A stretch of DNA of 45,252 nt from Thermoprotei archaeon (GTDB lineage Archaea > Thermoproteota > Thermoprotei_A > Sulfolobales > NBVN01). The notes under the pieces are model-generated. The model saw only the letters and a program-made list of their open reading frames with translations. It was not told where the DNA came from and ran no database searches. Shown one piece after another: positions 22,609 to 45,252 of the stretch. A program made the translations under genes and the position numbers. The stretch is taken from assembly GCA_003661745.1 (NCBI GenBank), contig QMWS01000001.1, positions 1 to 45,252 on the forward strand, in the 5' to 3' direction. Within the stretch, counting starts at the first letter, position 1, and every line of letters starts with the position of its first letter.

Positions 22609-22644
22609 GCTCACATATGCTCGGATATCCGAGCATATGTGAGC
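22609..22644. other. symmetry axis of the palindrome (candidate hairpin-telomere apex or dimer junction)
   Basis: GCTCACATATGCTCGGAT|ATCCGAGCATATGTGAGC. The axis lies between 22626 and 22627 with no unpaired spacer. CATATG sites flank it at 22614-22619 and 22634-22639. Confidence 0.9.
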
Positions 22645-22667
22645 TTGAGCTACCATCTTAAAGGAAA

Positions 22668-22684
22668 TTGCCCCTTCGGGGCAA
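22668..22684. repeat. GC-clamped local hairpin TTGCCCC-TTCG-GGGGCAA
   Basis: Perfect 7-bp stem with a TTCG tetraloop, 42 nt from the axis. Confidence 0.8.
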
Positions 22685-23303
22685 GGGGAAAACTCTGAGT
22701 AAAGCGTAGGATTGAGATTGAGCCGAAATCTCAAAGGAGATTTTTTTCTTACCAAAGGTAATTGGACAAACATGGGTATTGATTTATATAGTTCGAAATC
22801 CTAACCACGACGATAGTTAAAAATTGTCCAAATACCCGATTTTATGTGAATGTTTTCGAAAATCGGTTCGATGGTTCGTTGTTTCAATGTGTCAATGATT
22901 CAGTGTTTTTTATTTCGTGCATTCTGGGTTCTGCTTTTGATTTTTTGAAAAATCTCGGATTAGATTTGAGAAAAAATTGCGATTTTTGGCAATTCAATGT
23001 GGGGTAATTCTTTTTGTTTTCGGAAAAATATGGGCTGGTTGCCTTTCTTTTTTTGATTTGGGTTTGCATTTTTTGTATTGCACTTTTTGTCGATGGTAAC
23101 ACTTTTGGGCAAATTCGTGCTATCTACATTTTTAGGGATTAGTGTTCAATTTTGTGGAATAATGGACAGTTAATTTATATCATTTTTGATATAAATTGAC
23201 GCTTGATTGGACAAAAGTGGGGATTTGTGCATATGCACACGATTCCGCAAATGTGGGGTTCAGAGTTCTAACCAACCATTTATAAGGGGTTTTATTCGAA
23301 AAC

Positions 23304-23311
23304 TTTTTAAA
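23304..23311 (+). promoter_or_regulatory. TATA-box candidate (TTTTTAAA) for the 137-aa gene
   Basis: Purine-rich upstream flank CGAAAAC. Lies 27-42 nt upstream of the candidate starts. A second TTTATAA occurs at 23279-23285. Mirror copy 21942-21949. Confidence 0.45.
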
Positions 23312-23333
23312 GAAATGCTTTCCAAGTGGAAAG

Positions 23334-23747
23334 TTGCAGGTGATGGAAATGGTGTTTGTGCCTGATTGGGCAAAGGCATATGACATAAAGGAAGATGCCG
23401 TAGAAAGGGCATTAAAAGTGGACAGGGACCGACTACCATTGCCAGATGTAGGAGAGGAAGTAGAAGTGATTTTTGACGACGACCCAACAGAAGTGGACGC
23501 TGGAGACAGAATATTCCTCGTAGCACCGGTAACAAAGGACAAGGCAAAATATTCTCTTGTTATTCCAAAAACTCTGGCATTTTCTTTGACAAAGGAGATG
23601 AACAAAAACGGACTTGTAACTTTGAAGGGTTGTAGGGTTGTAATAACCGCTGTTACTGGTGAAGCAGGCGGACAAAAGGATGCAAAAATCTACAGAGGAC
23701 AAATAATTGAGTTTCCAGAGAGTGCTAAAGGAAAAGGAGCTATTTAG
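23334..23747 (+). CDS. hypothetical protein (137 aa), axis-proximal; composition unlike rest of element
   Basis: ORF from the supplied track. An AGGTGA SD precedes in-frame ATGs at 23343 and 23349, which are likelier starts than TTG 23334. Four oligo-T runs follow the stop. The protein is Ala/Pro/Thr-rich and the gene is not C-depleted. No family recognised. Confidence 0.8.
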   Translation: MQVMEMVFVPDWAKAYDIKEDAVERALKVDRDRLPLPDVGEEVEVIFDDDPTEVDAGDRIFLVAPVTKDKAKYSLVIPKTLAFSLTKEMNKNGLVTLKGCRVVITAVTGEAGGQKDAKIYRGQIIEFPESAKGKGAI

Positions 23748-23790
23748 CCTTTTTTTAATTTATTTTTTATTTTTTTATTTTCCTTTTTTA
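23748..23790 (+). terminator. oligo-T (archaeal-type) terminator / AT-rich stretch
   Basis: T7, T6, T7 and T6 runs immediately after the TAG stop at 23745-23747. The stretch could also serve as an unwinding element beside the iterons. Confidence 0.5.
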
Positions 23791-23829
23791 TAAGTGTAAT
23801 CTTTTGATGTGTTGATTTTCTGTTGTTGA

Positions 23830-23888
23830 GTATTACTTGGTAATACTTGGGTATTACTCGTATTACTCTGGTATTACTGAGTAATACT
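23830..23888. promoter_or_regulatory. iteron cluster, candidate replication origin / protein-binding array
   Basis: GTATTACT at 23830, 23851, 23860 and 23871, and the inverted form GTAATACT at 23840 and 23881. Start-to-start spacing is 10, 11, 9, 11 and 10 bp, about one helical turn. Confidence 0.55.
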
Positions 23889-23949
23889 TATGTATGTTTT
23901 CCAAATTTCAATGTAGTTAAATTATATATATTTTGCAAAAGTATTAAAT

Positions 23950-24102
23950 GAAGCGACCAGATTTGTCCGTTTAAAAAGTTGCAGGGTCAATTAGGTGTCT
24001 TTTGATTAGAAAATGAATTTCGTGGTACATCTCAGAGAAAGCTCAGGACCAATAGTACCCCCTAAAATTTTGTTTTAAAAAGAAGCAATCTGGTCTGTTT
24101 TT
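23950..24102 (+). ncRNA. candidate small structured RNA (speculative)
   Basis: AT-rich TATA-like ATTATATATATTTT at 23920-23933. A 9-bp closing stem pairs GACCAGATT (23955-23963) with AATCTGGTC (24087-24095), followed by T5 at 24098-24102. The island is C-balanced and has no ORF. Confidence 0.2.
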
Positions 24103-24195
24103 AGGGTGCTTATCTTTGATTATATTTGAGATTTATTATGCTACTGAGTGTCAAGGAACTAATGTGAAAAGGAGCATTTTGGTGGGTTTTTAGGT

Positions 24196-24295
24196 GGGTT
24201 ATCTCGTGGGAAAAGTTGGGTTTTCGGGGGTAATTTTTTCAAACCTTTTCCATTTTTTTGGGAGTAGTATGATTATTAAGTTGGGGGTTATCTCG
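24196..24295. repeat. direct repeat GGGTTATCTCG x2 upstream of the AAA+ gene
   Basis: Copies at 24196-24206 and 24285-24295, 89 bp apart. Mirror 20958-21057. Confidence 0.6.
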
Positions 24296-24555
24296 GTGAA
24301 ATCTCAATTTTAAGGTTCATTTTGAAAGGGGGTTCTCCTTTTCAGGTGGGGTTAAGTGTCTTACCTTGTTATTGGGTGTCATAGAAAAGATTTAAAAATA
24401 TTACTGTTGGATTTTCCAATTTCTTTTGATAAGCTGGTTTGTTTTGGTTGTGTAAATGTGATGCTGCGAAAATTTTTTAAACGAGTAAATGGTTGTTGGT
24501 TTAGAGAATATGAAGGGTAGAGGGAGAGATTGTTATGATGCTCATTCTTTCACTC

Positions 24556-24562
24556 TTATAAA
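24556..24562 (+). promoter_or_regulatory. TATA-box candidate (TTATAAA) for AAA+ gene
   Basis: Lies 34 nt upstream of the TTG start, and a GGGGGAT SD sits between them. Mirror 20691-20697. Confidence 0.4.
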
Positions 24563-24595
24563 CTTTTTGGTTTGGTTTCTGGGGGATGATAATGT

Positions 24596-26380
24596 TTGAC
24601 CCGTAGATATACTCGGAGTTATATTGAAAAACAGATTGTTGCGTTTATTTCTCAGGGTTTGGATGCTTTAAAGATATCAAGGTTGTTGGGGTGTGATGTT
24701 AAAGATGTTGAAGAGGTGAAATTTAAAATGCAGGAAGCTGTTGGAAGGTGTAAGGTAGAAGGAGTTGTTTGTGGGTGTTTTTTTAAACCTGTGCCGAGAT
24801 GGTTGGTGTATGAAAAGAAGGTTAAAAATAAAAAGAAGAAGGTTAAGAAGGAGCTAACTCTTTTGCAGAAGTTGTCTATTATTTCTTATGGGCATATACC
24901 AACGAATCTTTTTTCTAAGAAGATTTTGAGTATGGATAACGATGGTGAAGTTTGGTGGGTTGTGAATCTTAGTAGTGGTGTTTCGTTTGTAAGTAAGAAT
25001 TATGTTCCTGTTGGAAGTTATGTTGTGGTTGATGTTCAGAATTTTAATATTCCTGTTGGTGGTAGGAGTCATAAGATTGTGAGATGTAATTATGCAAAAG
25101 GTGTTAAAATAGTTGGAGAGGATGTTAAAAATATTGATTATGAGGAAGCTGTTAAGTATGTGTCTCCTATTTGTGGAACTCCATTATATACGAAGGAGCT
25201 TTTTGTTTATTCTCTTCTTTCTTATGATGCAAGTGGTCTTAGAAAGCCGGTTCCTATTTTAATTTGTGGTCCTTCTGGAACTGGTAAGACGACATTTTTA
25301 GTAGGAATTCATGAATCAATGGGTTTTCCTTTGTTACATTCTGATGATTTATCGAAGACATTGTTTGGGTATGTTAAGGATGGTGAAGCTGTTACTCCTA
25401 TAACTCATTATTGTGTTTTGGTAGATGAGGTTGACAAGGCAAGTCCTGATATGATTAATCTGATTTTAGAGGTTGCTTCTGGAGATTACATGGAGAGGTT
25501 TAAGTGGGGTAAGCACATACGACCACCATTTAGGGGTTATTTGTTTTTTGGGACATTGATGAGGGATGTGAGTTTTTGGAATGAGGTTAAGAAGAAAGCT
25601 TTTGCTCAGTTATTGAGGAGATGTGTTCTTGTTAATATTCAGCTTGATGCTGATAGATACTTTGAGGAGGTTAGTAGTAAGGGTATTGTTGGAAATCGAG
25701 AGCATTTTTATGCATTACTACGAAGGAGGTCGGTTGATGTTGTGTTTGATAATAAGGTTAGTAATGATTTTATTATGAAGTGGTTTAGGGATGTTAATTT
25801 GGATAAATATTCAGAGTTGGATTATGAGGTTCATTATGATAAGATAATGGTAAATCATGTTAAAAATCTTGCAATTGGTCGTGCCAAAGCTTTTGGGAAG
25901 AAGAAGGTTTCTGTTAGTGATGTTGAATATGTTTGTAAGGTTTTGTATAAACATCTTTATTCTTTAGGAATTGTTGAAATTTCAACTACAACGAGGAGTG
26001 AAATTCAGGAGTATCTGTCGAGCATAAAAGGTAGGACAATAAATCTTGAGACTTGTTGTAGTCGGTTCTGTATGTGTGAGGAAGCTGTTAGGGATGTGAT
26101 GGATGATTTTTCGAGGGGTGGAATAGTTAAGCTGGTTGATAGTGATAAGTGGAAGGTCATTGGTGCTTCTGATAGTGATTTGTATGATGTTATTTTGGAT
26201 AAGAAAGAGGAAGAGGCAATTATTAATGCATTGCAGTTGTCAGAACCGTTGACTATTGATGATATTTGTGTGATGACAGGTATTGATAAGGGTAAGGTTG
26301 AGAAATTTGTGAAAAAGTTGTTTGGTATGGGTAAGCTTAGGAAGCTTGGTGATAAATATACTTGGGTTCCGTATGTCTGA
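24596..26380 (+). CDS. AAA+ ATPase, MCM-like helicase/replication-initiator candidate (N-terminal HTH, C-terminal winged helix)
   Basis: 594 aa. Walker A ICGPSGTGKTT and Walker B CVLVDEVDK. LFFGT is sensor-1-like and LLRRCVL is Arg-finger-like. N-terminal HTH IVAFISQGLDALKISRLLGCDVKDV. C-terminal wHTH-like LTIDDICVMTGIDKGKVEKFVKKL. TTG start. Confidence 0.85.
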   Translation: MTRRYTRSYIEKQIVAFISQGLDALKISRLLGCDVKDVEEVKFKMQEAVGRCKVEGVVCGCFFKPVPRWLVYEKKVKNKKKKVKKELTLLQKLSIISYGHIPTNLFSKKILSMDNDGEVWWVVNLSSGVSFVSKNYVPVGSYVVVDVQNFNIPVGGRSHKIVRCNYAKGVKIVGEDVKNIDYEEAVKYVSPICGTPLYTKELFVYSLLSYDASGLRKPVPILICGPSGTGKTTFLVGIHESMGFPLLHSDDLSKTLFGYVKDGEAVTPITHYCVLVDEVDKASPDMINLILEVASGDYMERFKWGKHIRPPFRGYLFFGTLMRDVSFWNEVKKKAFAQLLRRCVLVNIQLDADRYFEEVSSKGIVGNREHFYALLRRRSVDVVFDNKVSNDFIMKWFRDVNLDKYSELDYEVHYDKIMVNHVKNLAIGRAKAFGKKKVSVSDVEYVCKVLYKHLYSLGIVEISTTTRSEIQEYLSSIKGRTINLETCCSRFCMCEEAVRDVMDDFSRGGIVKLVDSDKWKVIGASDSDLYDVILDKKEEEAIINALQLSEPLTIDDICVMTGIDKGKVEKFVKKLFGMGKLRKLGDKYTWVPYV

Positions 26381-26389
26381 GGTGATAGG

Positions 26390-26611
26390 ATGAGGTTGCA
26401 TGCAAAACCGTTGGTTGGTAAGGATTTTGAGAGAGCTTGTAAGAAGCTTGAAAGGATTATAGGTGATGAACCTTTGTCTTTGAATGATATTGCCAATCTT
26501 CTTGATATTTCGAGGGGACAAGCTTGGAAGGTTGTGAAAGCTTTAAAGAAGAAGGGTGTGATTAAATATATTAGGTGTAAAGGTTATGTGCGGGTATCTA
26601 ATGGGGGTTGA
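26390..26611 (+). CDS. small winged-helix DNA-binding protein (73 aa)
   Basis: GAGGTGAT SD at 26379-26386. HTH plus wing: LSLNDIANLLDISRGQAWKVVKALKKKGVIKYI. Confidence 0.8.
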   Translation: MRLHAKPLVGKDFERACKKLERIIGDEPLSLNDIANLLDISRGQAWKVVKALKKKGVIKYIRCKGYVRVSNGG

Positions 26612-26612
26612 T

Positions 26613-26644
26613 GTATATATATAATATATAAGGTATAATATAAG
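26613..26644 (+). promoter_or_regulatory. AT-alternating TATA region
   Basis: GTATATATATAATATATAAGGTATAATATAAG, about 27 nt upstream of ATG 26652. Mirror 18609-18640. Confidence 0.4.
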
Positions 26645-26648
26645 TGGT

Positions 26649-26861
26649 TTGATGAAGGTTGATGAAGAACTTTTAAAAGAGTTTGAAGAAGTTTGTAGAG
26701 AGTATGGTTTGGATTCTGAGAAGGTTTTGAACGAATTGGTTAGTGAATGGGTTGCAAATAGATATTACGATGTGTGGGTTTTCAAATTTGTTAAGTTTAT
26801 GTATTTTGTTGTTTTACCTGTATTGTTGATTTGTGTTGTAATTTACGCTGAGGTATTTTAG
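26649..26861 (+). CDS. small membrane-anchored protein (70 aa)
   Basis: ATG 26652 is a likelier start than TTG 26649. The N-terminal half is polar and helical (EELLKEFEEVCREYGLDSEKVLNELV), followed by one hydrophobic segment FVKFMYFVVLPVLLICVVIYA. Confidence 0.65.
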   Translation: MMKVDEELLKEFEEVCREYGLDSEKVLNELVSEWVANRYYDVWVFKFVKFMYFVVLPVLLICVVIYAEVF

Positions 26862-27271
26862 AGGTATAGTGGTGTCTTGATGAGTTTGTCGATTGCTTTG
26901 TGTAGTTCTTCTATTCCTTTTTCTATTTCCTTTATTGCTGTTATTTCCGCTTCTTTTGCCAATTTTCTGAACTCTTCTGCTGGTCTGATTTCTATTGTGT
27001 AATCTGTATTTCCAAATCTCTTTGTGAATGTTACATTCCAACTACCTTCTATCTTTGAAGATTTTGTGAAATCTGGTTTTTCAACCGTTTCTACATATCT
27101 TTTTAGTTCGTCTAAGATAGTTGTCTGTAAATCTGTTGGTTCGATATCTTTCGGTAAATCTAATTCTGCAATCTTGATGCACTTTGTTTCTGTTCCTTTC
27201 TTTTTACATAACCAAGCATCCCACTTCATACTGGAAAAATTTTTAAGTGGTAATATATAAGTTTTTAGCAT
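26858..27271 (-). CDS. hypothetical Lys/Glu-rich protein (137 aa), minority strand
   Basis: ORF from the supplied track. The internal ATG at 27229 (Met15) lies about 28 nt downstream of a TTATATATTA box (27251-27260 on the complement) and is the likelier start. The stop overlaps the stop of 26649..26861 (TTAG). G and C are roughly balanced. Confidence 0.7.
   Translation of the reverse strand: MLKTYILPLKNFSSMKWDAWLCKKKGTETKCIKIAELDLPKDIEPTDLQTTILDELKRYVETVEKPDFTKSSKIEGSWNVTFTKRFGNTDYTIEIRPAEEFRKLAKEAEITAIKEIEKGIEELHKAIDKLIKTPLYL
27230..27269. promoter_or_regulatory. divergent promoter region (two TATA-like elements)
   Basis: TTTTTAAG at 27245-27252 faces the + gene at 27270. TAATATATAA at 27251-27260 faces the - gene start at 27229. 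Mirror 17984-18023. Confidence 0.4.
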
Positions 27272-28313
27272 GTTAGACCAAGAAATTCATGCTCGGTTAA
27301 CTTATATTCTTGGAAAGCTTCAGAGTTCTGGATATATTGAACGGGATGATGTTGATTTTATAAGGGAAATTGTTGAGAGGCATGAGAAGGATGTTAGGTT
27401 GGAAAATGCTCTTTCTGTTCTGAAATTTGTTGGTGGAGATAGATTTGTTCCAACCGATACGGAATATTTCATTAAAAATTTGGATTCTTATAGGTATTTC
27501 GTTCATAGAAGGATAGAATCCAGAAGAGAGAAACATGGGTATAAGGTTGACATTTCTAAGGATTTTGATGATATGGATTTACTTGCTGTTCTTCCTAAGA
27601 TGTGTGGGGAGTATTGGCATTCTACTCTCAAAGCTTGGAAGGAGGATAATACCTATAGGGTTGAATGTACTTATGGTGAGGATTATTTGAAGTTAAGTGT
27701 TGTTAAGGGGGATGAAGGTGTAGAAGTTTATGTTGAGAGTAATCGTTTGGTGAGGGAAGAGGTTGATGTTGATTTTGATTATATTACTGAAAGTGTTAAG
27801 GATTACTGTCGAGGTTTGGATACTCCTTTGTGTATTGTTGTTAATTCGGAGTGTAGTTTCAATGCTTATAGGAGTCTTGGTGGGTCTCGTATTTATTTTT
27901 ATGATTGTAGGACGAGGGTTCCAGCTGATAAGGTTGGCTTGTTTAGGGATGTAGTAAGGCGGTATGGCGGAGTTGTGAATTGTGGGGGCAGTAGATGTAG
28001 CTTTTCGATAGTTGAGGATGGGTTTGAAAGTATCGTCTGGGATATTTGGTATGAGATTGCAGATGATTATGTTGAAAGGTATTATGAAGATTTGCTTGAT
28101 GATTATGTGGAATGTGCTTGTAATGAGTTGTATATGGAGAATGAAGGAACCAACTTGGATATTGAATGTAGTGGAACATACGCATATCCACATGGTGGTG
28201 GATTTATGTGGTATATGGGGGTAAAGGCAAATGGTATGTATGGTAAAGGTTTGTATGAGGAGTCGAAGATGTATTACGATTTGAGGAGGTTGTTTAGGTA
28301 TGTTGATTGGTGA
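27270..28313 (+). CDS. hypothetical acidic Cys-rich protein (347 aa)
   Basis: Long ORF on the stop-rich (C-poor) strand with an ATG start. No family recognised. Confidence 0.9.
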   Translation: MLDQEIHARLTYILGKLQSSGYIERDDVDFIREIVERHEKDVRLENALSVLKFVGGDRFVPTDTEYFIKNLDSYRYFVHRRIESRREKHGYKVDISKDFDDMDLLAVLPKMCGEYWHSTLKAWKEDNTYRVECTYGEDYLKLSVVKGDEGVEVYVESNRLVREEVDVDFDYITESVKDYCRGLDTPLCIVVNSECSFNAYRSLGGSRIYFYDCRTRVPADKVGLFRDVVRRYGGVVNCGGSRCSFSIVEDGFESIVWDIWYEIADDYVERYYEDLLDDYVECACNELYMENEGTNLDIECSGTYAYPHGGGFMWYMGVKANGMYGKGLYEESKMYYDLRRLFRYVDW

Positions 28314-28605
28314 GCTTGTATATCTTCGGGGTTTGACACCTTCGCAGTTGGGATACCATTTGAGGAATATTCTTTCGAGGATTGGTATAGAGATAGAGGG
28401 AGAGAGCATTACAGCATACTATATGAAGGACGAGGATGCCTACCGTATATCTGTCTGTAAGGGAGTTGTTTATCCAGAGGAGTGCATACCTGTTTTGTAC
28501 ATTAGAAGGGACTTCATAGAGAACATTTGCAATAGATATCCAGAGTTGTCTTTTTCGTGTGAAAGAGCTTTGCAACCATATGAACGGGAAGTTGTTGAGG
28601 TGTAG
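28300..28605 (+). CDS. hypothetical protein (101 aa)
   Basis: ATG start with a GAGGAGGT SD at 28283-28290. Overlaps the previous gene by 14 nt. Confidence 0.8.
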   Translation: MLIGELVYLRGLTPSQLGYHLRNILSRIGIEIEGESITAYYMKDEDAYRISVCKGVVYPEECIPVLYIRRDFIENICNRYPELSFSCERALQPYEREVVEV

Positions 28606-28606
28606 T

Positions 28607-28813: not shown

Positions 28814-28835
28814 ATTTTATTTGTTTGGTAGATAG

Positions 28836-28844
28836 TTTTTTAAG
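28836..28844. promoter_or_regulatory. single TATA-like element (TTTTTTAAG) in 34-bp divergent intergenic region
   Basis: Lies between the ATG of the - gene (28813) and the + ORF (28848). Mirror 16409-16417. Confidence 0.4.
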
Positions 28845-39538: not shown

Positions 39539-39890
39539 AATGGAGATGACACCAGAGGAATTTGTCTCGAAGATATGGGATTTATCTGTTGAATTTGATA
39601 ATGCCTGTAACACTTACTTTAGTCAGAGTAGTTGGCAATGGTATTCTTGCAAGGATGTTTCTCGTTACATTGGTAACACTATGAAATGTCTTGGAGAGGA
39701 AGATGTCATTGGTTGTTTGATTGGTTCTTTGAGGAATGTTACATTCGAATGTAGTAAGCTTACTGAGTTTGTTAGTTCTTTGATGGATATTTACAAGAGT
39801 TATGCAGAGGTTGTTGAGGATTATATAAAGAGTATCTGTGGTGGAAAGGATGGATTTGGAAGAGCTGAATTACGAACTGAGCAAGATTAG
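39504..39890 (+). CDS. Cys-motif helical paralog family member (128 aa)
   Basis: ATG 39540, just after the previous stop, is the likelier start. Motif NACNTYFSQSSWQWYSCKDV. Confidence 0.8.
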   Translation: MKRKENLRRASRMEMTPEEFVSKIWDLSVEFDNACNTYFSQSSWQWYSCKDVSRYIGNTMKCLGEEDVIGCLIGSLRNVTFECSKLTEFVSSLMDIYKSYAEVVEDYIKSICGGKDGFGRAELRTEQD

Positions 39891-40170
39891 AGAGCGTTTG
39901 AATAAGATGTGTAGTAAGTATGGTAGAGTTGTTCAGAATGCTTGTAAGGAGTATATGAATAGTGTTGATGAGCTTGTTGAAGCTATATCTAGTGGAAATG
40001 TTACAAAAGCTTTGATATCTGCTTCTTTGGCGGGTCATGATGTGTCATTTATTAGGAGGAATGTTTCTGATGATGATGCAAGAACTTTGCTTGATATTGA
40101 TACTAAGATTTATTATTTGATTGATGAGTATTTAGAGGATAATTGGGAAATTACTAGGAAGTTGAGATAG
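39838..40170 (+). CDS. Cys-motif helical paralog family member (110 aa)
   Basis: Start at GTG 39838 or ATG 39850. Motif KMCSKYGRVVQNACKEY. Confidence 0.8.
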   Translation: MVERMDLEELNYELSKIRERLNKMCSKYGRVVQNACKEYMNSVDELVEAISSGNVTKALISASLAGHDVSFIRRNVSDDDARTLLDIDTKIYYLIDEYLEDNWEITRKLR

Positions 40171-40649
40171 TGGTATTAGCTATTGGAATAAAGAGGATCC
40201 GGTATCTGGGGGATGTACTTGAGAAAGAGATGAATGAGTTAGAGGATATAATCTCTTCTTGTGATTCTATTTGTGCTAGGTATCATGATTCTGAATTTTG
40301 TAAATCTGCTTGTACAGAGGTATATGAGTTGTTTAACAAGTATAAGGATGCTGTGTGGGGATTTGTTGGTTCTTTGGAAAGTGGAGATGTATGGAAGATG
40401 ATGATGACAGACAGTTATCGTTATATTGATTATGGGAATTTTCTCAGGGATATTTTGAAGGATATTTCTTTGGGGTATTATAATGAAGCTAATCCTTTGA
40501 TTACTGGTGTATTTAGGCATGTTAAAGGATTTATGAGGTTATATGAGTTTAAGAAAAAATGGGATGAGTGGATGTGGTTTGGGGAAAAACATTTAAAGGA
40601 ATATGGACTTGAAAAATATTTGAAGGAGGGGATTGATGATGAAGTGTAA
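40170..40649 (+). CDS. Cys-motif helical paralog family member (159 aa)
   Basis: TAGTG stop/start overlap. Motif SICARYHDSEFCKSACTEVY. Confidence 0.8.
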   Translation: MVLAIGIKRIRYLGDVLEKEMNELEDIISSCDSICARYHDSEFCKSACTEVYELFNKYKDAVWGFVGSLESGDVWKMMMTDSYRYIDYGNFLRDILKDISLGYYNEANPLITGVFRHVKGFMRLYEFKKKWDEWMWFGEKHLKEYGLEKYLKEGIDDEV

Positions 40650-40965
40650 ACTTGCAAGGGTATATGACAAGGCAACTGAGTATCTTGCGTTGGTTTGTAA
40701 GTTTGACAAAGATGATGAACCACTATTGGAGAGAGTTGGTTGGACTGATGTTGAAGATTTGACATTTATATCCATAATTGGACCTAAGGCAAGTGCTGCT
40801 ATATCGCACTTCGATTATCCTCCGTATGATATAAAGGAACGCTCTGAGAAGATGGATGTAAATGCAACTACAATTAAACTTGCAGAATACTTGAAAGGAA
40901 GAGGATTTGCTCAGATACCAAATGTGATAGATTTAACCAATTTTAGGTCTCAATATGTCCCTTGA
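40633..40965 (+). CDS. hypothetical protein (110 aa)
   Basis: ATG 40636 or 40639 after a GGAGGGGAT SD. No clear family motif. Confidence 0.75.
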   Translation: MMMKCKLARVYDKATEYLALVCKFDKDDEPLLERVGWTDVEDLTFISIIGPKASAAISHFDYPPYDIKERSEKMDVNATTIKLAEYLKGRGFAQIPNVIDLTNFRSQYVP

Positions 40966-41272
40966 TGATAGAGATTTAAGAGTTGCTGTAGCGAAGGGTG
41001 TTATACAGGCATTGTGTAATAAGTACAATATGAAAGGTGCTTGTGATAGGATATTCAGTACTTATGAGAGTATGCTCAGGGATATAGAGAAAGATTCAAT
41101 GTCTGACCTTGTCGAGGATGCTTTTTCTTTCTGTGCTGCTGTTTCATGGTTGGAATCTGTTGTTATGATGGATACTGTTGATTATGATAGTTTGCGTGAA
41201 AATGTTAAGGTGTTAGAGAAGGCAGTTATTGGACGGGCAGTTGAAAGAGACCACGAGCATGGAGTATTATAA
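40955..41272 (+). CDS. Cys-motif helical paralog family member (105 aa)
   Basis: ATG start. Motif ALCNKYNMKGACDRIF. Confidence 0.75.
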   Translation: MSLDDRDLRVAVAKGVIQALCNKYNMKGACDRIFSTYESMLRDIEKDSMSDLVEDAFSFCAAVSWLESVVMMDTVDYDSLRENVKVLEKAVIGRAVERDHEHGVL

Positions 41273-41759
41273 TGATGTCAGAAGTGCTATTAAGAGCTAT
41301 TTGGAGAAATATAAGGAGGATACATATTCAGATATTCCATTAGATGAACATCCTGCTTTGGTATGTGAACGGGATGGAAGGTATTTTGTTCTTGAAGAAG
41401 GTTCTGCATTGTCTGTTGGTCCTGTTTCTGTGATTACTGAGGATACGATTAGGAGGTGTGGAAATGCTGTTGCTGCTGTTCATATTCATGGTTGTCGTAG
41501 TTGCAGTAGTATGCCGTCTATCGAAGATGCTGAGATGTTTTCTATTGCAGATTATGTCTGTGTTGCAAGTTGCGGTAAGGTAACTTGTTATAGGAGATTT
41601 CCGTTAAATCTTTATTCAGATGTAAAGGTTAGAGGTTTCTCTGAAACTGTGCCTGTGCTTTTGGCTGTTAACGGGCAGGTTGTCATTGGTAGTGCGGATG
41701 TTTATGACATTGAGGAATGTTCTGGTTTCGAAGATTATGTAGCATTTGAGGTTGAATAA
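41229..41759 (+). CDS. JAB/MPN-like metalloprotease candidate
   Basis: ATG 41259 is the likelier start. JAMM-like H-x-H-x9-S-x2-D motif in AAVHIHGCRSCSSMPSIEDAEMF, with an upstream layout like RadC/JAB domains. The spacer is 2 residues longer than canonical. Confidence 0.8.
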   Translation: MDGQLKETTSMEYYNDVRSAIKSYLEKYKEDTYSDIPLDEHPALVCERDGRYFVLEEGSALSVGPVSVITEDTIRRCGNAVAAVHIHGCRSCSSMPSIEDAEMFSIADYVCVASCGKVTCYRRFPLNLYSDVKVRGFSETVPVLLAVNGQVVIGSADVYDIEECSGFEDYVAFEVE

Positions 41760-41774
41760 TTGAACCGAAATCTC

Positions 41775-41780
41775 TTTATT
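41775..41780 (+). promoter_or_regulatory. weak TATA-like element (TTTATT)
   Basis: About 26 nt upstream of ATG 41804. Mirror 3473-3478. Confidence 0.3.
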
Positions 41781-41803
41781 GAAGTGATATCCTTTTTGTA
41801 AAT

Positions 41804-42259
41804 ATGAAATTTTTGAAGGTTGTTGGTAGATGGTTATATGTTCCTTCTGAAATTAGAGAGCGTTTTAAGGATATGAAAGCTGATTATTTTCGGATAGAAT
41901 ATCGTAAGGGTAATTTTGTCCTTATTCCGTTTATTAAGGTTGTACCGGCAAAAGTTTACCATCCGGGGAACCGTTACTATGTCTATGATGATAGATTGAG
42001 GATTGAACCGGTTGATATTAAGGAGATTGACATTGATAAAATAACTCAGAGACGCATAAGGAGTTTGGGTGGTTCTTTACTTTATGTTGAAATTGAGAAA
42101 CATAAGAATTATGTTGTTTGGACATATAAAGGTGTTGCATTTTTGATTACAAGAAATGCATTTTATTACGATAGTTCGTCTGGTTTGGATTACAATCAGG
42201 CAAGGAATCGTGCTTATATCATTGCTTCAATTTTAAAGAAAGAAGGTTTAGCAAGATAG
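41804..42259 (+). CDS. SpoVT/AbrB-like domain protein (151 aa)
   Basis: The N-terminus VGRWLYVPSEIRERFKDMKADYFRIEYRKGNFVLIP fits the swapped-hairpin AbrB pattern. The C-terminal roughly 100 aa are unassigned. Confidence 0.8.
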   Translation: MKFLKVVGRWLYVPSEIRERFKDMKADYFRIEYRKGNFVLIPFIKVVPAKVYHPGNRYYVYDDRLRIEPVDIKEIDIDKITQRRIRSLGGSLLYVEIEKHKNYVVWTYKGVAFLITRNAFYYDSSSGLDYNQARNRAYIIASILKKEGLAR

Positions 42260-42265
42260 GAGGTT

Positions 42266-42361
42266 GTGAGAGTGGATAATTTGTATGAGGAATTAAAAGA
42301 ATTGAGGACAAAGGATAAATACCTCGGACAATATTACTTAATAAGAAGTTTTAGGAGATGA
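42266..42361 (+). CDS. possible small ORF (31 aa)
   Basis: GTG start 4 nt after GGAGGTT. The stop overlaps the next ATG (ATGA). Below the ORF-track length cutoff. Confidence 0.3.
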   Translation: MRVDNLYEELKELRTKDKYLGQYYLIRSFRR

Positions 42362-42597
42362 GAGGATTGGCGGCGGCGGAAGTATCTAATCCAAAAGTTG
42401 AAAGATATTTGGACAGTTTGATGAAGGAATTAGGAATACCAAAAGAGAAGGAAAGGAAAGCACGAGAAATATTGTTGAATTTATACAGGGATGCTCTTGA
42501 GGAGGGAATAGAGATAGTTATGCGTAATGTGCGGAAGGCTTTGATTGGAAGTAACGACGATATAGTAAGCAAGAGTGCGGTGATGCGTAATGGATGA
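42358..42597 (+). CDS. hypothetical protein (79 aa)
   Basis: ATG start. Helical and Lys/Glu-rich. Confidence 0.7.
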   Translation: MRGLAAAEVSNPKVERYLDSLMKELGIPKEKERKAREILLNLYRDALEEGIEIVMRNVRKALIGSNDDIVSKSAVMRNG

Positions 42598-42778
42598 TGA
42601 ATTGTATGAGGAAATTATGTTGATGATTGAAAAAGCTTGGGGACGCAATTTTGACAATGCTAAACGATTCTTCAGGAGTAAGGGCAAGGTTTCGACACTT
42701 GAAAAGTATAAAAGAAAATGGCGAAAGGAATTTGTTGAGGACATTATAGAAATAATTGACAAGGTAGAACTTGGATAG
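42590..42778 (+). CDS. hypothetical protein (62 aa)
   Basis: The ATG overlaps the end of the previous gene. Basic and helical. Confidence 0.6.
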   Translation: MDDELYEEIMLMIEKAWGRNFDNAKRFFRSKGKVSTLEKYKRKWRKEFVEDIIEIIDKVELG

Positions 42779-42789
42779 GTGGGATAGAA

Positions 42790-42921
42790 ATGCAAGACGG
42801 GAAGTTGATAACAAATCTTCGAGATGTAGCTACTCGCTTGGATAAAATAGCGGTTGAAATGCTTAGATTGAGTGCAAAGCTCTCAGCAATTGCCGAAAAG
42901 GTTAAGAGAGGAGAGTTATGA
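42790..42921 (+). CDS. small coiled-coil protein (43 aa)
   Basis: ATG start after GGTGGGATAG. Translation MQDGKLITNLRDVATRLDKIAVEMLRLSAKLSAIAEKVKRGEL. Below the ORF-track length cutoff. Confidence 0.4.
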   Translation: MQDGKLITNLRDVATRLDKIAVEMLRLSAKLSAIAEKVKRGEL

Positions 42922-43011
42922 TGAGGGGAATTGATAGGGGATTTTGGTTGAAGATAATTTGGAGGGAAACTCCTCTTTGGTTGATATGTAGAGAGATACC
43001 GAGGTTCTACT

Positions 43012-43476
43012 ATGAGAAGATGGAGCAAAGAGGAAATAGAAGTTCTTAGGAAGGTTTATCCAGATGCTGGTGCAAAGAAGGTTGCTGAGCTTATAGGTAG
43101 GAGTGTTGATTCTGTCGTTGCTAAAGCTAAGGAACTTGGTATTAGGAGGAAGAGGAAGGTAGTATGGACAGATGAAATGGTTGGCTTTCTTGTGAGTAAT
43201 TATAATGTTATGACAATGGATGAGATTGCTGAGTATCTTGGTGTTGATTCTGTTGATGTGTTGAACAAGGCTAGACAGTTGGGTTTGAAAAAGAATCATC
43301 ATGGTAGGGTTACGGTTGTTGTTGATGATGAGTATGTAACTCTTGAACCAGATGATATTATAATGCTTTATGAAAATGGTTATTTTGACAATCTTGAGCT
43401 TAGGAGATTATGTAGGTTTAAATTTTTTAGGGATTATATTAATAGTAAGATAGGTGGTGTCCTTGAAAGACATTGA
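43012..43476 (+). CDS. tandem Myb/SANT-like (GcrA-N-like) HTH DNA-binding protein
   Basis: Internal duplication: WSKEEIEVLRKVYP..VAELIGRSVDSVVAKAKELGI and WTDEMVGFLVSNYN..IAEYLGVDSVDVLNKARQLGL. Confidence 0.85.
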   Translation: MRRWSKEEIEVLRKVYPDAGAKKVAELIGRSVDSVVAKAKELGIRRKRKVVWTDEMVGFLVSNYNVMTMDEIAEYLGVDSVDVLNKARQLGLKKNHHGRVTVVVDDEYVTLEPDDIIMLYENGYFDNLELRRLCRFKFFRDYINSKIGGVLERH

Positions 43477-44233
43477 ACTTGGTTTGAAGTATAAACAAGT
43501 TCTTGATGCTCTGTTTTCTGAAGCTATGTATGTTAGGGAAGTTGCTCGTAAGCTTGGGATAAATAAGGAAGTTGCTTCTGGTATTTTGCGTGGTTATTAC
43601 AAGTCTGATAAGGTTGAAATGATTGAGTATGGTAGGACTCATAAACCAAAGACACCTATTGATGATACTGATGAGATTAATCCTTATAATATATATTATA
43701 GGGTGGGTAAGGAGAAACTTGCCAATGAAAAAAAAGAGATTGTCAAGTTTGTTGATAAGGCAAATAAGGAGATTGCTAGAAAGGCAGAGAGATTACTTGT
43801 TGATGCTTGTTATCAATTGGCGGATGATTTGGGAATAAGTAGAAAGGAGATATATGTTTCACCATATACTTCTCCTAAGATAGATGTTTATATTCGTCCC
43901 AAGCTTGTTGCTGTTGATATTTCTATTAGGTATGAAAATCCTGTTGGGGTTTCGTATATAGATTCTAAACATCGTAGGAGGGTTAGGAACAAGGAATATT
44001 ACGATTTGATAATTATTGCACCTGCTTTTACGAGAAGTGCTTATAGGCGTGCAAAACGACTTGATGTTACTCTCATAAAGTTTCCGAAATCTTTTCCTGT
44101 TTTGCCTGTAATGGGATATTCTCCTTATGAGATTGCCTTTAAGTTCAAGAAGGTTGGTAGGATAGGAGTTCCTTTTGAAGAGGATGAGTTTGTGAGGCAT
44201 TTGTATAACATCTTGTATCCTTATTTGGTTTAG
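43454..44233 (+). CDS. winged-helix DNA-binding protein with uncharacterised C-terminal domain (259 aa)
   Basis: GTG start. N-terminal wHTH-like YVREVARKLGINKEVASGILRGYYKSDKVEMIEYG. The C-terminal domain (KIDVYIRPKLVAVDISIRYENP...YDLIIIAPAF) is only speculatively nuclease-like. Confidence 0.85.
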   Translation: MVSLKDIELGLKYKQVLDALFSEAMYVREVARKLGINKEVASGILRGYYKSDKVEMIEYGRTHKPKTPIDDTDEINPYNIYYRVGKEKLANEKKEIVKFVDKANKEIARKAERLLVDACYQLADDLGISRKEIYVSPYTSPKIDVYIRPKLVAVDISIRYENPVGVSYIDSKHRRRVRNKEYYDLIIIAPAFTRSAYRRAKRLDVTLIKFPKSFPVLPVMGYSPYEIAFKFKKVGRIGVPFEEDEFVRHLYNILYPYLV

Positions 44234-44254
44234 TTAGACATTTTTTAGAGAAGG

Positions 44255-44262
44255 TTTTTAAA
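44255..44262 (+). promoter_or_regulatory. TATA-box candidate (TTTTTAAA)
   Basis: Upstream flank GAGAAGG. About 29 nt upstream of ATG 44287. Mirror 991-998. Confidence 0.5.
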
Positions 44263-44286
44263 CAAGTGATTTTCCATAGGGAAATT

Positions 44287-45252
44287 ATGAGACACATAGG
44301 TATTGCGATTGTTTTGTTATTGATTTCAGTTGCTGTTGCAGATAGCTACTCTGCAACTGTTAGACGGGGAGAGTACATTGTTTTTTCAGATTATGCATTG
44401 AAGCTTGAAGATGTGTTTACTTACAATGGTACGAAGTTTGCATACTTTACAATGAAACGCTCTTGTAGCGATTACTGGTCAGGAACTGTTGCGGAAAATA
44501 CATCTCGTTCAGTAAATTCTGACATCTCCTTGTATGTTGGGCAGGTTCTACTTGCGGATGTTGGTGCTGCTGTTGTTACTGTTACTACGACATTTTCAAC
44601 CTCGTTTGGTTTGACATCTACCAATCCTTGTGAAACTACTACTACAACTACTCAGGAGAGTTCAAGTTCTGAAACTGAGCAGGTGTCCTATGCTTTGTAC
44701 ATTGGTGGTGTAGCTGTTACCTCTGGTGTATATGAATGTGAGCAAGCTGAATTGGTTGTAAATGTTTCAACATACAAAGTTGAGATAGAACCACAGGAAT
44801 GTGCGTTGGTTCTTGGTTCTACAATAGAGGGTTCTAAGTTGGACATTGTTCTTTCACCAAAGTGTATGTTGAACATATCCGTTGAACCTGTTTACATAAC
44901 TTTGCCTGTTGCTAAGTGGACTTTAAAACCACCTCATAGTGTCTCGCAGAGTTATGATGAGAACATTACAAGGTTGCAGAACCAAGTTAGGGATTTGAAT
45001 AGTAAGATAGAGAATCTGACAACTATGTTGGATAGGTTATCTGGGCAGATTTCGGAGTTGAACAAAAAAGTTACAGAGGTTCAGAAAACTTCTACTGGGA
45101 AGAATGTAAGTGAGGAAGAAGAGAAGCAGGAGGAGCATGTTATTTCTTACTCTGTTGCTTGTGCCAATAAGACGGGCAATGTCTGGAATTATGATTTGAG
45201 TTCCTGTGGTTCTTCAATGGCGGTTACTATATTTGACAATAATCAACCTGCT
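44287..45252 (+). CDS. surface/secreted glycoprotein candidate (partial; 322 codons, no stop before window edge)
   Basis: Translated by hand, and absent from the ORF track because it has no stop codon. Signal-peptide-like MRHIGIAIVLLLISVAVA, a Thr/Ser-rich linker (TTTFSTSFGLTSTNPCETTTTTTQESSSSE), the coiled-coil segment ITRLQNQVRDLNSKIENLTTMLDRLSGQISELNKKV, and 8 N-x-S/T sequons. Confidence 0.8.
   Translation, partial: MRHIGIAIVLLLISVAVADSYSATVRRGEYIVFSDYALKLEDVFTYNGTKFAYFTMKRSCSDYWSGTVAENTSRSVNSDISLYVGQVLLADVGAAVVTVTTTFSTSFGLTSTNPCETTTTTTQESSSSETEQVSYALYIGGVAVTSGVYECEQAELVVNVSTYKVEIEPQECALVLGSTIEGSKLDIVLSPKCMLNISVEPVYITLPVAKWTLKPPHSVSQSYDENITRLQNQVRDLNSKIENLTTMLDRLSGQISELNKKVTEVQKTSTGKNVSEEEEKQEEHVISYSVACANKTGNVWNYDLSSCGSSMAVTIFDNNQPA

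What the first reader, a model, noticed from the sequence alone, without database searches (positions are those of the whole stretch)
22627..45252. Extreme strand compositional asymmetry (C-starved sense strand) with discrete relaxed islands
On the right-arm + strand, which is the sense strand of nearly all genes, C is almost absent. Line 30301-30360 has G21 C2 T29 A8 and line 38701-38760 has G15 C3. The bias reaches the proteome. Arg is encoded as AGR, Leu as TTR and Ser as AGT/TCT, and the proteins are poor in Pro, His, Gln, Thr and Ala.

The bias relaxes in several islands:
- the axis-proximal non-coding DNA
- the 137-aa gene (line 23401-23460: G20 C9)
- the non-coding island 23940-24180 (line 24001-24060: G12 C11)
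- the two minority-strand genes (coding strand of line 18121-18180: G10 C9)
- partly, the terminal glycoprotein gene

Skew this strong is typical of replicons in which one strand spends long periods single-stranded and accumulates C-to-T deamination, as in strand-displacement or rolling replication. That would fit self-primed replication from a hairpin end. A purely transcription- or translation-linked cause is the alternative.
Basis: partly seen in the sequence, partly recalled or inferred. Interest (0 to 1): 0.65.

Follow-up and report, generated by a model that had tools for sequence, protein, structure and literature searches.

The report
Strand-fixed base bias, hairpin-ended archaeal element
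The window is a folded-back assembly of one end of a new 77.6-kb linear genetic element from hot-vent archaea, in which one DNA strand is so enriched in T and G and so poor in C at neutral sites that codon and amino-acid usage depend on which strand a gene lies on, pointing to replication that always starts from one hairpin end.

Summary
**Observation:** confirmed. The right arm has G 5883 / C 2296 (GC skew +0.44).

**What the window is:**
- It is an exact 45,252-bp palindrome, so only 22,626 nt are unique.
- Walking public assemblies shows this is the left end of a 77,614-bp linear element.
- Both ends assemble as fold-backs in independent datasets, with apex GGAT|ATCC at each and no ITR.
- The element is mis-binned in a Desulfurococcaceae MAG and has no close relatives.

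**Cause of the skew:**
- It is present at four-fold sites (T .56, A .24, G .14, C .06) and in intergenic DNA.
- 29 opposite-strand genes keep the bias of the DNA strand, not of their own sense strand (coding-strand model chi2 = 1614). Their two-fold codon usage is mirrored.
- Transcription or translation is therefore not the main cause.
- About 60% of the whole-gene GC skew is still the ordinary G>C at codon position 1.
- The bias never changes sign and is strongest near the window's axis. This suggests one-directional replication from that hairpin end, most likely by strand displacement.

**Caveat:** strain differences show A↔G exceeding C↔T (59:26), so cytosine deamination alone is not demonstrated.

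**Islands:** most have specific explanations.

The parts
1..45252 (.). Exact palindrome (axis between 22626 and 22627): a fold-back assembly of the left 22,626 nt of a 77,614-bp linear element
   Evidence: 0 mismatches to its own reverse complement. The same axis appears in ERZ27227320 k141_315791 (148,032 bp) and Logan SRR22214793_91 (exact palindrome, 98.1% identity). SPAdes NODE_253 stops 38 nt past the axis.
22627..23333 (+). Telomere-proximal non-coding DNA. The apex reads GGAT|ATCC. It holds short hairpins (e.g. GCCCCTTCGGGGC) and has a reduced GC skew of 0.24
   Evidence: The far terminus has the same GGAT|ATCC apex.
23334..23747 (+). 137-aa orphan gene with atypical codon usage (four-fold A32 T17 G8 C4). 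Its protein is identical in the 98%-identity strain variant
   Evidence: The AF2 model was uninformative.
23748..24595 (+). Non-coding region with an AT-rich tract, a GTATTAC/GTAATAC iteron inverted repeat (23829-23888) and 38-nt and 11-nt direct repeats. It is a candidate origin or control region upstream of the AAA+ gene, and the most variable segment between strains (3.1%)
24596..26380 (+). 594-aa AAA+ ATPase with N- and C-terminal HTH-like regions; a candidate replication initiator or helicase
   Evidence: Pfam AAA_33. Thirteen remote relatives. Profile hits to MCM, MoxR, Lon and Clp. Weak match to the globulovirus ATPase.
26858..27271 (-). Minority-strand gene 1 (137 aa). GC skew is relaxed, but the top strand stays T-rich
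28607..28813 (-). Minority-strand gene 2 (68 aa, membrane-like)
27270..44233 (+). Block of about 37 top-strand genes, almost all orphans, carrying the full bias (per-gene GC3 skew 0.38-0.91; four-fold T about .59, C about .05)
44266..45252 (+). N-terminal 329 aa of a 456-aa Thr/Ser-rich secreted or coiled-coil protein. The skew is relaxed only at codon position 2
   Evidence: pos1 0.54, pos2 -0.34, pos3 0.41. Full length.

Best explanation
What the window is. It is a fold-back (palindromic) assembly of the left end of a 77,614-bp linear double-stranded extrachromosomal element (virus or plasmid-like) of hyperthermophilic archaea. Both of its ends are hairpin or fold-back telomeres with the apex GGAT|ATCC. 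About 59 kb of genes run away from the left telomere on the top strand, and about 18.5 kb run away from the right telomere on the bottom strand.

Two layers make up the C-poor, G/T-rich sense strand:
(a) The ordinary coding-sense excess of G over C at codon position 1, which becomes visible because almost all genes share a strand.
(b) A genuine mutational asymmetry fixed to the DNA strand. At neutral sites the top strand is T>>A and G>C along the whole genome, whichever way genes point. It is strong enough that codon usage and amino-acid composition mirror between the two gene orientations.

Proposed mechanism (inferred). Replication always starts at the left (window-axis) telomere and travels the whole genome in one direction, most likely by strand displacement as in hairpin-ended rudiviruses. 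The top strand, whose 5' end lies at that telomere, is therefore the one repeatedly left single-stranded at 80 C or more, and it accumulates heat-driven damage. The fold-back junctions are the hairpin telomeres or the head-to-head and tail-to-tail junctions of replicative intermediates.

What is shown and what is inferred. Shown: the palindrome, the two fold-back ends, the strand-fixed neutral-site bias, the mirrored codon usage and the absence of a sign change. Inferred: single-strand exposure, the initiating end, and the lesion chemistry.
For: Skew at neutral sites:
- Window four-fold sites T .59, A .21, G .15, C .05; intergenic GC skew .40-.53; codon position 2 only .11.
- Host four-fold sites are symmetric.

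Strand-fixed:
- The window's 2 minus-strand genes reject the coding-strand model (chi2=104, p=2e-22) and fit the DNA-strand model (p=0.11).
- The 27 bottom-strand genes at 59-75 kb are A .66, T .18 on their own strand. Coding-strand model chi2=1614 vs DNA-strand model chi2=71.
- Two-fold codons are mirrored: C-ending 55% vs 11-19%; G-ending 25% vs 52-75%.
- Intergenic DNA in the far block still has top-strand AT skew -0.34.
- Third-position decomposition: DNA-strand part GC +0.34, AT -0.41.

No sign change over 77.6 kb.

Gradient: four-fold C/(C+T) rises from .036 near the axis to .18 at 50-60 kb (p=4e-10). Four-fold GC skew falls from .76 to about .2-.3.

Fold-back at both ends in independent samples and assemblers. 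The SPAdes contig ends 38 nt past the axis.

Positive control: in SIRV2, which has hairpin ends and strand displacement from both termini (PMC5062984), the strand with its 5' end at the nearer terminus is T-enriched at four-fold sites, and the sign changes along the genome.

Hot habitat: Desulfurococcaceae bin and Guaymas Basin sediment.

No APOBEC-like context.
Against: - Covalently closed hairpins, replicative junctions and single-strandedness are therefore all inferred from assemblies.
- Strain differences are A<->G 59 vs C<->T 26. At equilibrium this means equal per-site C>T on both strands and about 2.8-fold more A>G on the top strand. Cytosine deamination is thus not demonstrated as the driver, and a polymerase-error asymmetry would do as well.
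- The top-strand four-fold AT skew does not decay toward the far end (-0.42 to -0.64 at 59-75 kb), contrary to a simple exposure gradient. The weaker bias at 45-60 kb coincides with IS, restriction-modification and methyltransferase genes that may be recent arrivals.
- No nickase (HUH Rep), protelomerase, Holliday-junction resolvase or DNA polymerase was recognised (and the precomputed Pfam hits).
- The termini lack the long ITRs of rudiviruses and poxviruses.
- The 137-aa gene's A-rich synonymous sites remain unexplained.
Confidence: 0.55

Rival explanations
1. Same hairpin-ended linear dsDNA element, but replicated by ordinary strand-coupled forks. The origin would sit next to the left telomere (the iteron and AT-rich region at 23748-24595, upstream of the AAA+ gene). 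The resulting head-to-head dimer junction would then be resolved by a telomere resolvase, as in phage N15 or Borrelia. The bias would be a leading/lagging-strand asymmetry carried by one fork over 98% of the genome, possibly a polymerase-error bias rather than damage to single-stranded DNA.
For: - Iterons, an inverted repeat and an AT tract lie directly upstream of the AAA+/MCM-like ATPase.
- The element encodes MCM/AAA-like and clamp-like proteins.
- Both apexes share GGAT|ATCC, as expected for a sequence-specific resolution site.
- The A<->G-dominated strain spectrum fits a polymerase bias as well as damage.
- The only gene left of the candidate origin (137 aa) has reversed synonymous AT skew.
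Against: - No protelomerase or tyrosine-recombinase-like gene was recognised.
- A neutral-site AT skew of -0.4 to -0.6 is far larger than the leading/lagging bias I know from cellular chromosomes (my own knowledge).
- The non-coding DNA left of the candidate origin (22627-23333) is not reversed: AT skew -0.15, GC skew +0.24.
Confidence: 0.2
2. The top strand is the packaged genome of a very large single-stranded DNA virus with a different hairpin at each end (a parvovirus-like heterotelomeric layout). The fold-back contigs are the turn-around ends of its duplex replicative form. The bias comes from damage to the naked strand in virions at high temperature.
For: - One sign of bias along the whole genome with no decay at the far end.
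- Fold-backs at both ends without an ITR.
- The only known ssDNA hyperthermophilic archaeal virus (ACV) has a skew in the same direction, though weaker: GC skew .25; four-fold .22/-.14.
Against: - 77.6 kb would be about three times the largest ssDNA genome examined here (ACV, 24.9 kb).
- The element carries restriction-modification and DNA methyltransferase genes, an IS605-type TnpB and a clamp-like protein, all typical of dsDNA replicons.
- It assembles at about 47x coverage from ordinary shotgun libraries.
- No Rep/HUH gene was recognised.
Confidence: 0.1
3. The asymmetry is linked to transcription or translation: non-template-strand damage, purine loading of mRNAs, or codon adaptation. It looks genome-wide only because the genes are co-oriented.
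For: - A real coding-strand component exists. Codon position 1 has GC skew 0.46 in both orientations, and the whole-gene coding part is 0.23 vs the DNA-strand part 0.14.
- Intergenic GC skew is slightly negative in the far block (-0.15).
- Total GC skew drops to about 0 or below where the genes flip.
Against: - 29 opposite-strand genes keep the top-strand bias at four-fold sites (chi2 1614 vs 71).
- Their two-fold codon usage is mirrored although the tRNA pool is the same.
- Host codon usage is symmetric.
- Intergenic AT skew keeps the top-strand sign in both blocks.
Confidence: 0.04

Closest known systems
Rudiviridae (SIRV2): hairpin-ended linear dsDNA viruses of hyperthermophilic archaea that replicate by strand displacement from the termini (Martinez-Alvarez et al. 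2016, PMC5062984)
   Same: Linear genome with fold-back or hairpin ends. Head-to-head type junctions are expected as intermediates. The host is a hyperthermophilic crenarchaeon. In SIRV2 the strand whose 5' end is at the nearer terminus is T-enriched at four-fold sites, the same polarity as here.
   Different: No long ITR: the termini share only the GGAT|ATCC apex. No detectable rudiviral proteins. Size is 77.6 kb vs 35 kb. Here the bias has one sign and is 3-4 times stronger. In SIRV2 it changes sign along the genome, consistent with firing from both ends.
Borgs and related linear archaeal extrachromosomal elements (Al-Shayeb et al. 2022, PMC9605863)
   Same: [quoted passage not shown] Mostly orphan genes. 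Total GC skew changes at the block boundary.
   Different: Size is 78 kb rather than 0.6-1 Mb. There are no kb-long ITRs and no pervasive tandem repeats. The host lineage is a hyperthermophilic Desulfurococcaceae bin, not Methanoperedens. At neutral sites the bias does NOT flip at the block boundary, so the two blocks are not two replichores fired from both ends.
Heavy/light-strand asymmetry of vertebrate mitochondrial DNA
   Same: A strand-fixed bias, strongest at four-fold sites, independent of gene orientation. One strand is rich in G+T. There is a gradient with distance from the origin, and A>G transitions are important (PMC4182315; the rest from my own knowledge).
   Different: mtDNA is a circular organelle genome, not a hairpin-ended linear element. 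Here T enrichment includes a pyrimidine excess (T+C 63-73% at four-fold sites) that transitions alone cannot produce.
Globuloviridae (PSV, TTSV1, PSV2, TSPV1)
   Same: Nearly all genes lie on one strand, with a few opposite-strand genes 3-6 kb from the left end. A large P-loop ATPase sits near the left end, with weak similarity (BLASTP E=1e-4; hhalign E=5e-5). PSV and TTSV1 also show a DNA-strand-fixed T>A bias at four-fold sites.
   Different: Globuloviruses are 18-28 kb, and PSV has a 190-bp ITR. No homologues of coat proteins VP1-VP3 were found. The ATPase match covers only the AAA+ core. This element is not a member.
Aeropyrum coil-shaped virus (Spiraviridae, ssDNA) and heterotelomeric parvoviruses
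   Same: One-strand gene layout and G>C, T>A on the coding or packaged strand in ACV. Parvoviruses have different hairpins at the two ends and turn-around replicative forms (my own knowledge).
   Different: ACV is circular and 24.9 kb, and its skew is about half as strong. No shared proteins. Parvoviruses are 4-6 kb animal viruses.

Membership tests
Replication-linked (DNA-strand-fixed) compositional asymmetry | Skew present at four-fold degenerate and intergenic sites | tested here: met
   Four-fold GC skew .52 and AT skew -.45 in the window; intergenic GC skew .40-.53. Genome-wide four-fold composition is T .56, A .24, G .14, C .06.
Replication-linked (DNA-strand-fixed) compositional asymmetry | Bias follows the DNA strand irrespective of gene orientation | tested here: met
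   Across 2 + 27 opposite-strand genes the coding-strand model is rejected (p=2e-22; chi2=1614). Two-fold codon usage is mirrored.
Replication-linked (DNA-strand-fixed) compositional asymmetry | Sign change at the origin or terminus, or a gradient with single-strand time | tested here: inconclusive
   No sign change at neutral sites over 77.6 kb. There is a significant gradient in the top-strand block (p=4e-10), but no decay of AT skew in the far block.
Hairpin-ended linear dsDNA replicons (rudivirus/poxvirus type) | Covalently closed hairpin termini, or head-to-head and tail-to-tail junctions | tested here: inconclusive
   Exact fold-back contigs exist at both ends in independent samples and assemblers. 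A SPAdes contig ends 38 nt past the axis. Reads could not be inspected.
Hairpin-ended linear dsDNA replicons (rudivirus/poxvirus type) | Inverted terminal repeats | tested here: not met
   blastn with word size 7, left 3 kb against the reverse-complemented right 3 kb: best E=0.09. Only the first 4 nt from each axis (ATCC) are shared.
Hairpin-ended linear dsDNA replicons (rudivirus/poxvirus type) | Terminal nickase (HUH Rep) and/or Holliday-junction resolvase | tested here: not met
   No such Pfam or PHROG assignment in the window's proteins or in the precomputed Pfam hits of the remaining genes. Most proteins are orphans, so absence is weak evidence.
Globuloviridae | Homologues of structural proteins VP1-VP3, and an 18-28 kb genome | tested here: not met
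   BLASTP of all arm ORFs against PSV and TTSV1 ORFs found no structural-protein hit. The genome is 77.6 kb.
Globuloviridae | Conserved left-end ATPase | tested here: inconclusive
   BLASTP E=1e-4; hhalign E=2.4e-4 and 5e-5 with probability 44-68%, covering the AAA+ core only.
ssDNA viruses (Spiraviridae / parvovirus-like) | Single-stranded packaged genome | not testable with these tools
   This needs virion DNA or strand-specific read data.
Borg-like linear extrachromosomal elements | Two unequal one-strand gene blocks on a linear genome | tested here: met
   The top-strand block spans 0-59 kb (102 genes plus 2 minority genes). The bottom-strand block spans 59-77.4 kb.
Borg-like linear extrachromosomal elements | Long ITRs, pervasive perfect tandem repeats, 0.6-1 Mb size, Methanoperedens host | tested here: not met
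   No ITR and a size of 77.6 kb. The element sits in a Desulfurococcaceae bin from hot sediments. Tandem repeats were not scanned genome-wide.

The most novel reading that the evidence does not exclude
The element is packaged as single-stranded DNA: a roughly 78-kb heterotelomeric 'giant parvovirus-like' archaeal virus, about three times larger than any known ssDNA genome. The genome-wide one-signed bias would then be the footprint of a naked strand surviving at 80 C or more. A less extreme but still novel version is a dsDNA element that replicates only by one-ended strand displacement, so that a gene's strand determines its codon usage and amino-acid composition.
Probability: 0.1. Interest if true: 0.92.

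Novelty: new variant of a known kind. Interest (0 to 1): 0.68.

Why it matters
1. It defines a previously undescribed 77.6-kb linear archaeal element. Both ends are hairpin or fold-back telomeres, there is no ITR, and both apexes share an 8-bp motif. It recurs in Guaymas Basin and other hot samples and has essentially no protein relatives.

2. It is a natural experiment in mutation-driven evolution. Genes on the two strands of one genome, read by the same tRNA pool, have mirrored codon usage (C-ending 55% vs 11-19%) and different amino-acid composition (Cys, Val, Tyr and Phe against Lys, Ile and Thr).

3. It is a methodological warning. Total GC skew changes at the boundary between the two gene blocks and would be read as 'two replichores fired from the termini', the inference made for Borgs. 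Neutral-site analysis shows a single genome-wide asymmetry instead.

4. PSV, TTSV1 and SIRV2 show weaker versions of the same bias. Neutral-site strand bias may therefore be a usable, so far little-exploited readout of replication mode in uncultivated viruses of hyperthermophiles.

Tried and rejected
- Close relatives of the 594-aa ATPase: none in the phage/archaeal-virus records, IMG/VR, GTDB contigs, the 5.8-billion-protein set or 325 genomes of the order.
- CRISPR link to the bin: 73 spacers from three arrays, none matching the arm. A 26-nt hit to C24 is Lys/Glu low-complexity coding.
- Other low-GC or high-skew contigs of the bin as further pieces of the element: no blastn or tblastx similarity.
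- APOBEC-like enzymatic editing: rejected. C loss shows no 5'-neighbour dependence, only extra CpG depletion.
- Host codon adaptation: rejected.
- Globuloviridae membership: rejected after the genome proved to be 77.6 kb and no structural homologues were found.
- Whole-record search of the 148-kb contig: the record is not held.
- The left-terminal sequence was sought in IMG/VR and in JGI contigs: no exact match.
- Rfam on the non-coding region: only sub-threshold microRNA-like hits to the iteron hairpin.
- AlphaFold2 of the 137-aa protein: pLDDT 35, unusable, so no fold search was run.
- Polarising substitutions: only two strain variants exist (L100, L105) and there is no outgroup. The other records are 99.98-100% identical.

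Full report
**1. The observation**

The window is identical to its own reverse complement, with 0 mismatches over 45,252 bases.

- The arm has A 6386, T 8061, G 5883, C 2296: GC skew +0.439, AT skew -0.116, G+T 61.6%.
- The codon and proteome statements hold.
- The window is the whole of contig C1 of a 1.08-Mb, 199-contig, roughly 60%-complete MAG. Within that bin it is an outlier: GC 36% vs 44%, mean |GC skew| 0.44 vs 0.11, and it is the only palindromic contig.
- The bin is a Desulfurococcaceae archaeon, with RpoB 96-97% identical to uncultured Desulfurococcaceae MAGs.

**2. Where the skew sits**

- In the 41 top-strand genes of the window, GC skew is 0.59 at codon position 1, 0.11 at position 2 and 0.62 at position 3.
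- At four-fold sites GC skew is 0.52 and AT skew is -0.45 (T .59, A .21, G .15, C .05).
- Intergenic DNA has GC skew 0.40, or 0.53 beyond 24.6 kb.
- Long ORFs of the host bin are symmetric at four-fold sites: A .32, C .18, G .18, T .32.

**3. DNA strand or coding strand?**

The two minus-strand genes in the window have four-fold sites A50 C6 G6 T12 on their own strand. This rejects a bias that follows the coding strand (chi2=104, p=2e-22). It fits one that follows the top DNA strand (p=0.11). That sample is small, so I looked for more of the genome.

**4. The rest of the element**

The 137-aa protein next to the axis led to other public assemblies:
- A 148,032-bp MEGAHIT contig (ERZ27227320) that is palindromic about the same axis and 99.99% identical.
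- A 7,292-bp Logan contig (SRR22214793) that is an exact palindrome about the same axis and is a 98.1% strain variant.
- A Logan contig (SRR6823441) that begins 82 nt from the axis.

Exact-protein look-ups then let me walk a 77,573-bp SPAdes contig (ERZ1742239 NODE_253, coverage 47).
- Its coordinates map as arm position = 77,536 minus record position. All overlapping pieces agree with 0 conflicts.
- The contig stops 38 nt past the axis. That is what a k=77 de Bruijn assembler would give if reads cross a fold-back (inference; the 38 nt themselves were not seen).

A last metagenome scan with a far-end 45-mer found JGI contig Ga0180301_10006225 (9,130 bp).
- It is an exact palindrome that overlaps the path by 1,877 nt at 100% identity.
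- It places a second axis after position 77,614.

The element is therefore 77,614 bp from axis to axis, with fold-backs at both ends.
- The termini share no ITR (best blastn E=0.09).
- Both apexes read GGAT|ATCC.
- JGI sample 3300014911 is Guaymas Basin hydrothermal sediment (PMC6478937).

**5. Layout**

- Positions 0-59.0 kb carry 102 called genes on the top strand, plus the two minority genes.
- Positions 59.0-77.4 kb carry genes on the bottom strand, the last ending about 250 nt from the right axis.
- Recognisable functions are few:
  - the 594-aa AAA+ ATPase;
  - a YdjM-like membrane protein;
  - Na/Ca-exchanger-like and Rce1-like membrane proteins;
  - a PolB-exonuclease/RNase H-like protein;
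  - an IS605-type TnpB;
  - an N4/N6 DNA methyltransferase;
  - an MmeI-like restriction-modification enzyme;
  - an MCM/AAA-like ATPase;
  - a clamp-like protein;
  - a MoxR-type ATPase paired with a DUF2201 protein.
- The ATPase has only 13 remote relatives among 1.84 billion representative proteins. These lie on short, mostly one-strand contigs, and only one shows a milder version of the bias.
- Its family profile matches AAA+ cores, including MCM over about 300 residues. It matches the globulovirus left-end ATPase weakly.

**6. The decisive composition tests on the whole genome**

Four-fold sites:

| Gene set | n | Composition | Same sites read on the top strand |
|---|---|---|---|
| Top-strand genes | 6,664 | T .562, A .236, G .140, C .062 | same |
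| 27 bottom-strand genes | 1,513 | own strand A .658, T .178, C .094, G .071 | T .66, A .18, G .09, C .07 |

- For the bottom-strand genes the coding-strand model gives chi2=1614 and the DNA-strand model chi2=71.
- Two-fold codons mirror. C-ending codons are 55% in bottom-strand genes against 11-19% in top-strand genes. G-ending codons are 25% against 52-75%.
- Amino-acid usage differs accordingly.
- Intergenic DNA in the far block keeps top-strand AT skew -0.34, but its GC skew is -0.15.

Decomposing own-strand skews into a coding part and a DNA-strand part:

| Sites | Coding part | DNA-strand part |
|---|---|---|
| GC skew, codon position 1 | 0.46 | 0.06 |
| GC skew, codon position 3 | 0.18 | 0.34 |
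| GC skew, all positions | 0.23 | 0.14 |
| AT skew, codon position 3 | 0.06 | -0.41 |

The headline GC skew of the sense strand is thus mostly ordinary coding asymmetry made visible by co-orientation. On top of that lies a large, real, strand-fixed mutational component that dominates at neutral sites.

At neutral sites the top-strand bias never changes sign over 77.6 kb. Total GC skew, by contrast, falls from about +0.4 to about -0.1 at the gene-orientation switch.

**7. Gradient**

- Within the top-strand block, four-fold C/(C+T) rises from .036 (0-5 kb) to .18 (50-60 kb) (Spearman p=4e-10).
- Four-fold GC skew falls from .76 to about .2-.3.
- The 45-60 kb region holds IS, restriction-modification and methyltransferase genes and may be recently acquired.
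- In the far block the top-strand four-fold AT skew remains -0.42 to -0.64.

The gradient is suggestive but not clean.

**8. Which mutations?**

- C loss at four-fold sites is almost independent of the 5' neighbour (C/(C+T) .06-.09). The only context effect is extra loss before G (.023; CpG rho 0.56). There is no APOBEC-like signature.
- The only true strain variants (L100 with 66 differences, L105 with 28) differ by A<->G 59 times and C<->T 26 times (p=4.5e-4). The excess holds in non-coding DNA (23:13) and at synonymous sites (25:12).
- At compositional equilibrium this implies similar per-site C>T rates on both strands and about 2.8-fold more A>G on the top strand.
- The pyrimidine excess at four-fold sites (T+C 63-73%) also needs asymmetric transversions.
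- From established chemistry, heat accelerates cytosine and adenine deamination and depurination, all faster in single-stranded DNA (my own knowledge). Any mix of these on an exposed top strand gives G>C and T>A. The present data cannot apportion them, and they do not single out C>T.

**9. Controls and comparisons**

- ACV (ssDNA): GC skew .25; four-fold .22/-.14.
- PSV: GC skew .13. TTSV1.09. ABV.03.
- PSV's four minus-strand genes and TTSV1's four also follow the DNA-strand model. TSPV1 does not, and PSV2 (all genes on one strand) shows almost no four-fold skew.
- In SIRV2, where strand displacement from both hairpin termini has been shown experimentally (PMC5062984), the top-strand four-fold AT skew rises from left to right in both gene classes: -.03 to +.24 and -.24 to -.05. 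The strand with its 5' end at the nearer terminus is the T-enriched one.
- By that rule, the single sign here points to initiation at the left (window-axis) telomere only.

**10. The 'islands'**

- The minority-strand genes are not relaxed in mutation pressure. Their four-fold sites carry the top-strand bias, and GC skew cancels because coding G1 richness now lies on the other strand.
- The glycoprotein gene is relaxed only at codon position 2 (C90 G44; Thr/Ser-rich). Positions 1 and 3 keep 0.54 and 0.41.
- The telomere-proximal non-coding DNA is modestly relaxed (0.24, p=4.5e-4) and is full of short self-complementary elements.
- The 23940-24180 'island' is not significant (p=0.06).
- The 137-aa gene is the real oddity.
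  - Its four-fold sites are A-rich on the top strand (A32 T17 G8 C4; p=1e-8 against the other genes).
  - Its protein is unchanged in the 98% strain.
  - It lies left of the iteron/AT-rich candidate origin (23748-24595), which is the only hint favouring an internal origin there.
  - It remains unexplained.

**11. Verdict**

A replication-linked or DNA-strand-linked origin is supported over transcription or translation. The hairpin-end idea gains strong indirect support, because fold-backs appear at both ends in independent data. The specific chemistry (C>T deamination) and the single-stranded state are inferred, not shown.

Noticed in passing
window 22623-22630 and L116 4562-4569: Both fold-back apexes of the 77.6-kb element have the same 8-bp palindrome GGAT|ATCC, although the termini otherwise share no similarity. 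This is a possible telomere resolution or nicking site.
   Followed up: partly
window 23829-23888: A near-perfect 29-nt inverted repeat built of GTATTAC/GTAATAC units. It sits next to an AT-rich tract and upstream of the AAA+ ATPase gene. GGGTTATCTCG is repeated at 89-nt spacing (24196, 24285). This region is the most variable segment between strains (3.1%).
   Followed up: partly
window 30619-31017: A 132-aa membrane protein matches Pfam YdjM (E=2.3e-15). It is one of the very few assignable genes.
   Followed up: no
window 37917-41272: A run of similar-sized small genes. The Cys enrichment (x2.9 vs host) is what C>T pressure at Arg CGY codons would favour.
   Followed up: no
L100 (Logan SRR22214793_91), arm positions 3520-3646: The 98%-identical strain variant becomes unrelated (33/127 identity) partway through the ATPase gene. 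This suggests a mosaic or recombinant genome, or a chimeric contig end.
   Followed up: no
L004 (PSV), L005 (TTSV1), L115 (SIRV2): Known viruses of hyperthermophiles show the same kind of DNA-strand-fixed bias at four-fold sites. For PSV minus-strand genes the coding-strand model is rejected at p=2e-25 and the DNA-strand model fits at p=0.42. SIRV2 shows a sign-changing gradient that fits two-ended strand displacement.
   Followed up: partly
element positions about 45-59 kb (L109, L111): IS605-type TnpB, an N4/N6 methyltransferase and an MmeI-like restriction-modification gene lie in the stretch where the neutral-site bias is weakest (four-fold AT skew -0.12 to -0.26). This fits recent acquisition.
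   Followed up: no
G000 contigs C2, C130, C147, C159: The bin is heterogeneous. C2 (41.7 kb) has 61.6% GC and carries a tandem array. Three CRISPR arrays with different repeats are present (76 repeats, 73 spacers), and none targets this element.
   Followed up: partly
L096 (JGI 3300033150 contig, 6,756 bp): A remote relative of the ATPase sits on a one-strand contig with a milder version of the same bias (four-fold T .47, A .22, G .20, C .11) and an S-layer-like gene.
   Followed up: no
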